A stretch of DNA of 64,000 bases from Escherichia coli (GCF_022846255.1 NZ_AP025682.1); one strand, 5' to 3'. Positions 2,141 through 5,259 are shown, counted from the stretch's first letter. Numbers and translations: made by a program. The notes: a model not told the origin generated them from the sequence alone.

Positions 2141-4119
<1,979 letters not shown>

Positions 4120-4121
<2 letters not shown>

Positions 4122-5259
4122 GTCAGAGCCCCTCGATCTCAATCAGTTAGCGCAAAAAATTAAACAGTGGGGGCTGGAACTGGGCTTTCAGCAGGTAGGT
4201 ATTACCGATACCGATCTCAGCGAGTCCGAGCCCAAACTGCAAGCATGGCTGGACAAACAATACCACGGCGAAATGGACTGGATGGCGCGTCACGGTATGC
4301 TGCGCGCCCGCCCCCATGAGTTATTGCCTGGTACGCTGCGCGTGATCAGCGTGCGGATGAATTACCTTCCTGCTAACGCCGCATTTGCCAGCACGCTGAA
4401 AAACCCCAAACTCGGCTATGTTAGCCGTTATGCGCTGGGCCGTGACTATCACAAACTTCTGCGCAACCGACTCAAAAAGCTGGGCGAGATGATTCAGCAA
4501 CATTGTGTTTCGCTGAATTTTAGACCGTTTGTCGATTCTGCGCCTATTCTTGAGCGCCCGTTAGCTGAAAAAGCTGGGCTCGGCTGGACAGGTAAGCACT
4601 CACTTATCCTCAATCGCGAGGCCGGCTCGTTCTTCTTTTTAGGCGAATTGCTGGTCGATATTCCGCTACCCGTGGATCAACCAGTCGAGGAAGGATGCGG
4701 TAAATGCGTGGCCTGTATGACGATTTGCCCGACCGGTGCCATCGTCGAGCCATATACCGTCGATGCTCGCCGCTGTATCTCTTATCTCACCATCGAACTG
4801 GAAGGGGCGATCCCGGAAGAGTTGCGACCGTTAATGGGAAATCGTATTTATGGTTGCGATGACTGCCAGCTTATCTGCCCGTGGAATCGCTATTCGCAAC
4901 TCACTACAGAAGACGATTTCAGCCCGCGTAAGCCGCTACACGCACCGGAACTCATTGAGTTATTCGCCTGGAGCGAAGAGAAGTTTTTAAAAGTCACGGA
5001 AGGATCGGCGATTCGCCGTATAGGTCACCTGCGTTGGCTGCGTAATATTGCCGTAGCCTTAGGCAATGCGCCCTGGGATGAAACGATTCTGGCGGCGCTG
5101 GAGAGTCGTAAAGGTGAGCACCCACTTCTTGATGAGCACATAGCGTGGGCGATTGCGCAGCAAATCGAGAGACGAAATGCGTGCATAGTCGAAGTGCAAT
5201 TGCCGAAAAAACAGCGTCTGGTTCGGGTGATTGAAAAAGGGTTACCGCGTGACGCCTGA
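4120..5259 (+). CDS. queG: epoxyqueuosine reductase QueG (YjeS), 4Fe-4S protein
   Basis: ORF track 4012..5259; product from [23 protein letters not shown]..., Cys-rich ferredoxin-like motifs (CGKCVACMTICPTGA, CDDCQLICPWN). Confidence 0.82.

What the first reader, a model, noticed from the sequence alone, without database searches (positions are those of the whole stretch)
4119..4122. Back-to-back, overlapping divergent start codons of nnr and queG
With the starts chosen to match the K-12 product lengths, the nnr Met codon (minus strand) and the queG ATG (plus strand) overlap by 2 nt, leaving no intergenic promoter space. One of the two starts is probably further in, or the promoters lie inside the neighbouring coding sequence.
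Basis: inference. Interest (0 to 1): 0.15.

Follow-up and report, generated by a model that had tools for sequence, protein, structure and literature searches.

The report
Shared CATG start of nnr/queG
Two back-to-back E. coli genes (nnr and queG) really do start on the same four bases, CATG, so each gene's promoter and ribosome-landing site sits inside the other gene; this is rare and conserved, but it is already annotated and its overlapping transcription is already published.

Summary
CAT at 4119-4121 (nnr ATG, minus strand) and ATG at 4120-4122 (queG, plus strand) share two bases, exactly as annotated in K-12 and by PGAP.

Both starts are genuine. In 31 Enterobacterales genomes these two ATGs are the only start codons available in every species. 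nnr always has a Shine-Dalgarno 5-8 nt upstream. The QueG N-terminus lies within 4 residues of that of the crystallised B. subtilis enzyme.

The second option, promoters inside the neighbouring gene, is supported:
- queG has an extended -10 promoter (TGgTATACT, 4080-4088) written into nnr codons 12-15.
- Rare codons there (AGT, ATA/TTA, CCA) are fixed in every species with the overlap and lost where the genes are uncoupled.
- The nnr Shine-Dalgarno is the antisense of queG codons 4-5.
- The nnr promoter(s) lie deeper in queG. It has not been mapped; a candidate is at 4513-4526.

Published data already report overlapping transcripts and RNase III-cut dsRNA here, and list queG-nnr as a divergent excludon. 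Whether the overlap regulates anything is untested.

Verdict: a real, rare and conserved arrangement that is already known. Interest is low.

The parts
4119..4122 (.). Palindromic CATG holding both start codons. The nnr ATG is the complement of 4121-4119; the queG ATG is 4120-4122; they share 2 nt.
   Evidence: Sequence and ORFs. Identical to the K-12 and PGAP annotation. Invariant in 28 of 28 Enterobacterales sequences that align here without indels. It is the only start codon common to all species in both frames.
2574..4121 (-). nnr (yjeF) coding sequence, 515 aa: bifunctional NAD(P)HX epimerase/dehydratase. Codons 1-15 double as the queG leader and promoter.
   Evidence: Pfam YjeF_N (residues 40-199) and Carb_kinase (258-496). 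K-12 annotation. Alignment to solved homologues begins at E. coli residues 28-41, opposite their residues 14-31, which is consistent with an N-terminal extension in the E. coli protein.
4120..5259 (+). queG (yjeS) coding sequence, 379 aa: epoxyqueuosine reductase. Codons 1-8 double as the nnr ribosome-binding region.
   Evidence: Pfam QueG_DUF1730 and Fer4_16. Residue 6 aligns with residue 30 of the tagged B. subtilis QueG chain 5d08, where the enzyme's N-terminal sequence NVYQL begins. There are no indels in the first 80 residues across 31 species.
4080..4088 (+). queG promoter: extended -10 element TGgTATACT (TG at 4080-4081, hexamer TATACT at 4083-4088), embedded in nnr codons 12-15 (Ser-Ile-Pro-His).
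   Evidence: T, G and hexamer positions 1, 2, 4 and 6 are invariant in 28 of 28 species, and hexamer position 5 varies only between C and G. Codon use is AGT 29/29, ATA 18/18, TTA 12/12 and CCA 28/28, against background frequencies of 6.7-13%. These codons are lost in four lineages where nnr is uncoupled from queG. TGnTAnnnT lies upstream of queG in 62 of 75 gammaproteobacterial loci against 9.1 expected. The published dPqueG deletion removes window 4060-4090.
4095..4119 (+). Predicted queG 5' leader of about 25 nt, starting at the inferred TSS G4095. It has no Shine-Dalgarno, is unstructured, and is the antisense of nnr codons 1-9.
   Evidence: G4095 lies 7 nt after the -10 element and is invariant, while the flanking nnr third codon positions vary. 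The best anti-SD pairing is only -2.2 kcal/mol in the window and averages -2.25 across 31 species. The RNA folds less well than 198 of 200 shuffles. The published dsRNA cluster ends at window 4101. The TSS itself is inferred, not mapped.
4129..4134 (-). nnr Shine-Dalgarno GAGGGG, 7 nt upstream of the nnr ATG. It is the antisense of queG codons 4-5 (CCC CTC, Pro-Leu).
   Evidence: Anti-SD duplex energy is -7.2 kcal/mol in the window, against -3.2 for Met6 and 0 for the upstream TTG. An SD is present in 31 of 31 species, mean -7.5 kcal/mol. queG third codon positions are unusually conserved in codons 4-8.
4101..4456 (.). Region of overlapping sense and antisense transcription: published p19-captured, RNase III-generated dsRNA cluster S-361 (yjeS, yjeF; 5' overlap), mapped onto the window.
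   Evidence: Huang et al. 2020, PMC7373196, Table 2: U00096.2 coordinates 4,391,754-4,392,109. The cluster is also marked as present in the Lybecker dsRNA and Conway overlapping-operon sets. The coordinate map is K-12 (.3) = 4398187 - window, from an ungapped 98.5% alignment. The .2-to-.3 shift of 1,977 nt comes from my own knowledge of the two record lengths.
4513..4526 (-). Candidate nnr promoter element GGTCTAAAATTCAG, with a -10-like TAAAAT at 4522-4517. The TSS would be near 4510, giving a leader of about 390 nt antisense to queG. This is tentative.
   Evidence: It is the only invariant run of 11 nt or more in the whole 1,140-nt queG gene among 17 Enterobacteriaceae species. The rare Arg codon AGA is fixed in the window and all 18 Enterobacteriaceae loci, while neighbouring synonymous sites vary. 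It lies just beyond the dsRNA boundary at 4456. It has no good -35 and no TG extension, and the strict promoter scan found nothing.
4104..4106 (-). Alternative in-frame nnr ATG (Met6), rejected as the start.
   Evidence: It is not conserved: GTG, TTG or no start codon in many species. Its SD is weak, -3.2 kcal/mol.

Best explanation
Both annotated starts are genuine. nnr (minus strand) and queG (plus strand) begin on the palindrome CATG and share its central AT, so there is no intergenic DNA. All expression signals of each gene are therefore written into the first codons of the other.

How queG is expressed:
- It is transcribed from an extended -10 promoter (TGgTATACT, 4080-4088) that also encodes Nnr residues Ser12-Ile13-Pro14-His15.
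- Transcription probably starts at G4095.
- The mRNA then has a leader of about 25 nt with no Shine-Dalgarno and little structure. This leader is the antisense of nnr codons 1-9.

How nnr is expressed:
- It is translated from a canonical Shine-Dalgarno (GAGGGG, 4129-4134) that is the antisense of QueG Pro4-Leu5.
- It is transcribed from one or more promoters deeper inside queG, at least about 336 nt in. A candidate -10 lies at 4522-4517. Read-through from the glyVXY/yjeV side may also contribute.

Consequences and origin:
- The two mRNAs are perfectly complementary over their translation-initiation regions. They form dsRNA that RNase III cuts, which is the divergent-excludon arrangement.
- The overlap probably arose in an ancestor of Enterobacterales. 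The Nnr N-terminus appears to have been extended across what is a 10-60 nt spacer, the queG leader, in other Gammaproteobacteria.

Status of each step:
- Shown here: the sequence anatomy, the conservation of both starts, and the codon-level constraint on the promoter and the SD.
- Taken from the literature: the transcript overlap and the dsRNA.
- Inferred: the exact TSSs, the nnr promoter, and any regulatory consequence.
For: Anatomy and annotation.

Both starts are real:
- The CATG ATGs are the only start codons common to all 31 Enterobacterales species in each frame, and some species have stops 1-7 codons upstream.
- An nnr SD is present in 31 of 31 species, mean -7.5 kcal/mol.
- The QueG N-terminus aligns from residue 6 with the start of crystallised B. 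subtilis QueG. tblastn matches in distant taxa begin at residues 1-9.
- Both initiation regions are less structured than about 99% of shuffles.

The queG promoter lies inside nnr:
- The bases of TGnTAwAsT are invariant and nnr codons 12-14 have zero third-position entropy, while neighbouring codons show 1.2-1.7 bits.
- Rare codons are fixed: AGT 29/29, ATA 18/18, TTA 12/12 and CCA 28/28, against backgrounds of 6.7-13%.
- Natural controls in which nnr is displaced from queG (Brenneria, Pectobacterium, Idiomarina, Photobacterium) lose these codons.
- queG keeps a TGnTAnnnT 31-34 nt from its ATG whatever lies upstream.
- 62 of 75 loci carry the motif against 9.1 expected.
- The Katayama laboratory's dPqueG primers delete window 4060-4090 (PMC10950094).

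Overlapping transcription:
- dsRNA cluster S-361 maps to window 4101-4456 (PMC7373196).
- queG-nnr is one of 16 divergent excludons found in at least 50% of 58 MG1655 transcriptomes, and yjeV-queG-nnr is listed as a noncontiguous operon (PMC12288877).

Origin:
- Non-enterobacterial neighbours have 10-60 nt spacers, with the -10 element already inside the nnr N-terminal codons.
Against: - No TSS, ribosome-initiation or N-terminal peptide data for this locus could be retrieved. The supplements were not held, or the held text had no match. G4095 and the nnr promoter are therefore inferences.
- The strict sigma-70 scan found no promoter on either strand in 3700-4600. It requires a -35 match and does not model extended -10 promoters.
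- The candidate nnr -10 has no -35 and no TG extension, and it is conserved only within Enterobacteriaceae.
- Species are phylogenetically related, so counts such as 29/29 are not independent events. However, synonymous sites nearby are close to saturated.
- The dPqueG deletion was designed by its authors. In the passages I read, it was not shown to abolish queG transcription.
- The overlap has been lost in 5 of 36 Enterobacterales loci (Brenneria, Pectobacterium, Photorhabdus x2, Xenorhabdus), so it is dispensable. This argues against an indispensable regulatory role.
Confidence: 0.85

Rival explanations
1. Annotation artefact: one start is further in. Either nnr begins at Met6 (4104-4106), or queG begins at an internal codon. 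That would leave a short true intergenic gap.
For: In E. coli and its closest relatives an in-frame ATG exists 5 codons into nnr. queG has no Shine-Dalgarno at the annotated ATG. No direct N-terminal or initiation-profiling data were found.
Against: Met6 is GTG or TTG in 7 of 30 species with an intact frame and there is no start codon at that position in 14 others, whereas ATG1 is universal and preceded by an SD in 31 of 31. The Met6 SD is only -3.2 kcal/mol against -7.2. The next queG start shared by all species is Met52, which would delete residues that align with the solved B. subtilis enzyme from residue 6. Even with Met6, the gap would be 13 nt, still with no room for promoters.
Confidence: 0.05
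2. The anatomy is as described, but the overlap is a neutral by-product of start-codon drift: an N-terminal extension of Nnr over the queG leader. The antisense pairing would have no regulatory consequence, and the dsRNA would be incidental noise cleared by RNase III.
For: Nnr residues 1-11 are poorly conserved and are not covered by the alignments to solved homologues. Related Gammaproteobacteria have a short spacer instead. Five enterobacterial lineages have broken the arrangement without losing either gene's function-defining domains. Both genes are thought to be expressed at low, housekeeping levels (own knowledge).
Against: The exact 2-nt overlap and the 31-nt promoter-to-ATG spacing are retained across the order. 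The locus is among the top 20 protein-coding dsRNA clusters in stationary phase. It also passes the threshold of at least 50% of samples in ExcludonFinder. None of this demonstrates regulation.
Confidence: 0.45
3. nnr has no promoter of its own inside queG. It is transcribed mainly by read-through from the glyVXY/yjeV promoters across the whole antisense strand of queG, as a noncontiguous operon.
For: ExcludonFinder lists yjeV-queG-nnr as a noncontiguous operon. Read-through transcripts from PglyVXY through datA are documented (PMC10950094). No convincing sigma-70 promoter was found on the minus strand in queG.
Against: The dsRNA cluster covers only the first ~336 nt of queG rather than the whole gene. 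This suggests that the main antisense transcript starts near window 4456-4520. A uniquely invariant 14-nt element with a -10-like TAAAAT sits at 4513-4526. Conway et al. describe the yjeF operon as having 8 promoters, but their positions were not available.
Confidence: 0.2

Closest known systems
E. coli K-12 queG (b4166) / nnr (b4167) junction, as annotated in RefSeq and reported as a divergent excludon
   Same: The window has the identical CATG overlap and product lengths of 379 and 515 aa. It is 98.5% identical to K-12 over 801 nt without gaps. Overlapping 5' transcription and RNase III dsRNA are reported for this pair (PMC7373196; PMC12288877).
   Different: Nothing structural differs; the window is another Escherichia strain. 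The published work lists the pair without dissecting the start codons, the embedded extended -10 element or the embedded SD.
Divergent excludons (Listeria type), and E. coli 5'-overlapping pairs such as rsd/nudC and asd/yhgN
   Same: They are divergent neighbours whose 5' transcript ends overlap and yield dsRNA that is a substrate for RNase III (PMC7373196).
   Different: In the classic cases, long 5' UTRs overlap across an intergenic region, and one long transcript represses the opposite operon. Here there is no intergenic region at all: the two coding sequences themselves overlap and the two ribosome-binding regions are mutually antisense. Mutually exclusive expression has not been shown.
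Extended -10 (TGn) sigma-70 promoters
   Same: The element has a TG dinucleotide one base upstream of a -10 hexamer with the key positions A2 and T6, and no recognisable -35. Conservation is concentrated on exactly those bases.
   Different: The element lies inside a protein-coding sequence on the opposite strand, where it fixes rare codons. Its activity and TSS are inferred, not measured here.
Short gene overlaps in prokaryotes (co-directional ATGA/TGATG type)
   Same: The overlap is a few nucleotides involving start or stop codons, and it is conserved among relatives.
   Different: Those overlaps are co-directional and serve translational coupling. This one is head-to-head, a class with only 2 of 663 overlapping pairs in E. 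coli (PMC4161906), and it cannot couple translation.

Membership tests
Nnr (bifunctional NAD(P)HX epimerase/dehydratase, YjeF) | YjeF_N domain followed by a Carb_kinase (NAD(P)H-hydrate dehydratase) domain | tested here: met
   Pfam PF03853 (E 1.9e-45, residues 40-199) and PF01256 (E 2.2e-86, residues 258-496). The best solved homologue is T. maritima TM0922 Nnr.
QueG (epoxyqueuosine reductase) | QueG_DUF1730 domain plus a double 4Fe-4S ferredoxin domain, with homology to solved QueG | tested here: met
   PF08331 (E 2e-24) and PF13484 (E 1.1e-22). Match to 5d08 B. subtilis QueG at E 3e-49 over residues 6-364.
Head-to-head (divergent) overlapping gene pair | Both overlapping start codons are the true translation starts | tested here: met
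   This was tested by comparative evidence only. The two ATGs are the only universally available starts in 31 species, the nnr SD is conserved, and the QueG N-terminus is homologous to the solved enzyme. No direct protein or ribosome data were obtained.
Extended -10 sigma-70 promoter | TG at -15/-14, one spacer base, and a -10 hexamer with A at position 2 and T at position 6 | tested here: met
   TGgTATACT at 4080-4088. These bases are invariant in 28 of 28 species. The motif lies upstream of queG in 62 of 75 loci against 9.1 expected.
Extended -10 sigma-70 promoter | A primary transcript 5' end about 7 nt downstream, dependent on the element | not testable with these tools
   TSS tables were not held, or the held text had no match. 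Indirect support: the dsRNA boundary lies at window 4101 and the published dPqueG deletion design covers the element.
Divergent excludon | Divergent neighbouring genes whose transcripts overlap at their 5' ends | not testable with these tools
   This comes from the literature, not from tests here. queG-nnr is among the 16 divergent excludons detected in at least 50% of 58 MG1655 RNA-seq samples (PMC12288877). dsRNA cluster S-361 is reported (PMC7373196).
Divergent excludon | Mutually exclusive or reciprocal expression of the two partners, through transcriptional interference or RNase III | not tested
   No expression data were analysed. RNase III-type ~21-nt dsRNA products are reported, but no reciprocal regulation was found in the papers read.

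The most novel reading that the evidence does not exclude
The mutually antisense initiation regions could form a conserved reciprocal switch. Each mRNA's ribosome-binding site is perfectly complementary to the other's. [quoted passage not shown] Under this reading, the dual-coded promoter and SD have been kept for that reason across Enterobacterales.
Probability: 0.2. Interest if true: 0.45.

Novelty: already known. Interest (0 to 1): 0.2.

Why it matters
The result confirms that a suspicious-looking annotation, two start codons on one CATG, is correct and should not be 'fixed' by automated start-site curation.

It is also a compact natural example of dual coding:
- An extended -10 promoter and a Shine-Dalgarno sequence are each written into the opposite gene's first codons.
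- This leaves visible footprints in codon choice. The rare codons ATA, AGT, CCA and possibly AGA are fixed.
- Anyone recoding or refactoring this part of the E. coli genome would break queG transcription or Nnr translation with 'synonymous' changes.

If the overlap is regulatory, it would link tRNA queuosine maturation to the hfq/miaA/mutL superoperon. There is no evidence for that yet.

Tried and rejected
Data sources that gave nothing:
- Published TSS tables were searched for the locus: Cappable-seq (PMC4782308), Kim 2012 (PMC3415461) and Thomason 2015. The held supplement text had no match at these coordinates (perhaps cut when stored), or the paper was not held.
- The Conway 2014 supplements were not held.
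- N-terminomics (TRAINSPOTTER) and INRI-seq supplements had no usable entry for nnr or queG.

Scans that gave nothing:
- The built-in sigma-70/terminator scan found nothing in 3700-4600. It does not model extended -10 promoters.
- The Rfam search of 3800-5400 found no RNA family.

Analyses that did not resolve the nnr promoter:
- A third-codon-position conservation scan of queG across all Enterobacterales found only the first ~8 codons to stand out. The 4513-4526 island appears only within Enterobacteriaceae.
- A minus-strand -10 search gave only weak candidates: TAAAAT at 4522-4517, TGtGATAGT at 4453-4445 and TGgTATTGT at 4265-4257. None could be confirmed.
- I compared the 4513-4526 element by eye with a sigma-E-type promoter (GTCTAA). 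No GGAACTT-like -35 lies at the right spacing, so I dropped the idea.

Alternative starts rejected:
- The upstream starts were rejected: nnr TTG at 4142, and queG GTG at 4012 and 4075. They are not conserved and have no SD.

Full report
**1. The observation**

The window reads ...ggtccgtCATGtcagag... at 4119-4122.
- On the minus strand, the CAT at 4119-4121 is the ATG of a 515-aa product beginning [11 protein letters not shown].
- On the plus strand, the ATG at 4120-4122 opens a 379-aa product beginning MSEPLDL.
- The two codons share 4120-4121.
- Pfam identifies the products as Nnr (YjeF_N plus Carb_kinase) and QueG (DUF1730 plus Fer4_16).
- RefSeq K-12 carries exactly this overlap: queG 4392928..4394067 on the minus strand and nnr 4394066..4395613 on the plus strand. 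PGAP does the same in another strain.
- The stretch is present in 5,425 of 5,426 complete E. coli genomes. It aligns to K-12 at 98.5% without gaps, which gives the coordinate map K-12 = 4398187 - window.

**2. Are both starts real?**

I retrieved 80 queG loci from one genome per species. In 31 of 36 Enterobacterales loci, Nnr aligns from residue 1 at exactly the same 2-nt overlap.

I listed every ATG, GTG and TTG between the upstream in-frame stop and the conserved body of each gene. In each frame, the CATG ATG is the only start codon present in all 31 species.
- For queG, six species open the ORF only 2-7 codons upstream with no other start. The next shared start is Met52.
- For nnr, five species have a stop immediately upstream. 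The E. coli Met6 is replaced by GTG, TTG or a non-start codon in many species.
- nnr has a Shine-Dalgarno (GAGGGG, 4129-4134, 7-nt spacing, -7.2 kcal/mol). Met6 scores -3.2 and the upstream TTG scores 0.
- An SD is present in 31 of 31 species, mean -7.5 kcal/mol.
- queG has no SD in any of them (mean -2.25 kcal/mol).
- QueG residue 6 aligns with the first residues of the crystallised B. subtilis enzyme, so the E. coli protein is only about 4 residues longer at the N-terminus.
- Both initiation regions fold less well than about 99% of dinucleotide shuffles (z = +1.9 and +2.0). This fits active start sites, especially one without an SD.

**3. Where are the promoters?**

The junction alignment shows a striking block, TGTGGTATACT, about 31 nt upstream of the queG ATG. 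It is an extended -10 element (TGgTATACT, 4080-4088) and lies in nnr codons 12-15.

Across 28 species without indels in this block:
- TG and hexamer positions 1, 2, 4 and 6 are invariant, and position 5 varies only between C and G.
- nnr codons 12-14 have zero third-position entropy, while neighbouring codons have 1.2-1.7 bits.
- G4095, 7 nt downstream of the hexamer, is also invariant.

Codon usage makes the constraint explicit:

| Residue | Codon used | Count | Background in the same genes |
|---|---|---|---|
| Ser | AGT | 29/29 | 12.5% |
| Ile | ATA | 18/18 | 6.7% |
| Leu | TTA | 12/12 | 11% |
| Pro | CCA | 28/28 | 13% |

When the amino acid changes (Pro to Ala or Ser, Ser to Thr), the promoter bases are still kept.

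Natural controls point the same way. Where nnr is separated from queG, the equivalent residues use other codons:
- Brenneria: GTT TTG CCG TGC
- Pectobacterium: AGC TTA CCT GAT
- Idiomarina: AGT ATT CCG CAG
- Photobacterium: CAG TTA CCG ACA

Meanwhile queG keeps its own TGnTAnnnT 31-34 nt from the ATG whatever lies upstream. That holds with tsaE upstream in Photorhabdus and with an inserted 293-aa ORF in Pectobacterium. Overall, 62 of 75 gammaproteobacterial loci carry the motif within 110 nt of queG, against 9.1 expected.

Independently, the primers used by Katayama's laboratory to build dPqueG delete window 4060-4090, which is this same element (PMC10950094).

**4. The nnr side**

Huang et al. 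2020 list a p19-captured, RNase III-dependent dsRNA cluster 'yjeS, yjeF, 5' overlap'. It is also marked as present in the Lybecker and Conway data sets, at U00096.2 4,391,754-4,392,109 (PMC7373196).
- With the 1,977-nt shift between record versions (own knowledge of the two record lengths) and the map, this is window 4101-4456.
- It starts just inside the predicted queG TSS and reaches about 336 nt into queG.
- nnr-strand transcripts therefore begin at least that far inside queG.

ExcludonFinder lists queG-nnr among only 16 divergent excludons seen in at least 50% of 58 MG1655 transcriptomes. It lists yjeV-queG-nnr as a noncontiguous operon (PMC12288877).

I could not map the nnr promoter.
- The only invariant run of 11 nt or more in the whole queG gene among 17 Enterobacteriaceae is 4513-4526 (minus strand GGTCTAAAATTCAG).
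- It contains a -10-like TAAAAT and a fixed rare AGA codon.
- It is a reasonable candidate, with a TSS near 4510, but it lacks a -35 or a TG extension.
- Read-through from glyVXY/yjeV remains possible.

**5. Origin**

In non-enterobacterial Gammaproteobacteria with adjacent nnr and queG, the two genes are separated by about 10-60 nt, and the -10 element already lies in the first nnr codons.
- Enterobacterales Nnr has about 8-11 extra, poorly conserved N-terminal residues. These cover the queG leader.
- This suggests that the start codon migrated up to the CATG.
- The arrangement was later lost in five enterobacterial loci, so it is not indispensable.

**6. Comparison with what is known, and verdict**

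Head-to-head overlaps are rare: 2 of 663 overlapping pairs in E. coli (PMC4161906). This one, however, is the reference annotation. Its overlapping transcription and dsRNA are published, and its promoter position has already been used experimentally.

What this analysis adds is the comparative proof that both starts are genuine, and the codon-level evidence that an extended -10 promoter and an SD are dual-coded in the partner genes.

Whether the antisense overlap regulates either gene is untested. Rfam finds no RNA family in the region.

The finding is real, tidy and already known. Interest is low (0.2).

Noticed in passing
window 4513-4526: CTGAATTTTAGACC (minus strand GGTCTAAAATTCAG) is the only invariant run of 11 nt or more in the whole queG gene among 17 Enterobacteriaceae species. 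It fixes the rare Arg codon AGA. Outside that family the codon is CGN. It may be an nnr promoter -10 (TAAAAT) or some other embedded signal.
   Followed up: partly
window 4110-4163 (+): An out-of-frame ATG at 4110-4112, inside the predicted queG leader, opens a 17-codon ORF ([17 protein letters not shown]) that overlaps the queG start. It is the antisense of the nnr His4 codon and is absent in Rahnella (TTG) and Pantoea (CTG). Whether it is translated is unknown.
   Followed up: no
window 5242-5295 (-): The 17-aa yjeV ORF (MRFYFYSQAVDESGVTR) is present and overlaps the queG 3' end convergently by 18 nt. The literature lists yjeV-queG as a convergent excludon.
   Followed up: partly
window 5529-5948 (-): There are three tRNA-Gly(GCC) genes. 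The spacer between the second and third is 157 nt, against about 35 nt in K-12 and strain CFSAN061771. The extra ~120 nt contains an 87%-identical repeat of a 39-nt stretch spanning the other tRNA spacer, but no tRNA.
   Followed up: partly
window 2574-2602: The nnr 3' end overlaps the tsaE start co-directionally by 29 nt, as in K-12.
   Followed up: no
L043 2365-3001; L031 1869-3001: Synteny breaks in some lineages. In Photorhabdus, nnr is missing from the locus and tsaE diverges directly from queG. In Pectobacterium, a 293-aa ORF of unknown function is inserted between nnr and queG. In both, queG keeps its extended -10 element at the usual distance.
   Followed up: partly
L019 about 2950-3002: The metagenome-assembled enterobacterial genome has an apparent frameshift in the nnr N-terminal codons, and the -10 spacing is 32 instead of 31. 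This is probably an assembly indel.
   Followed up: no
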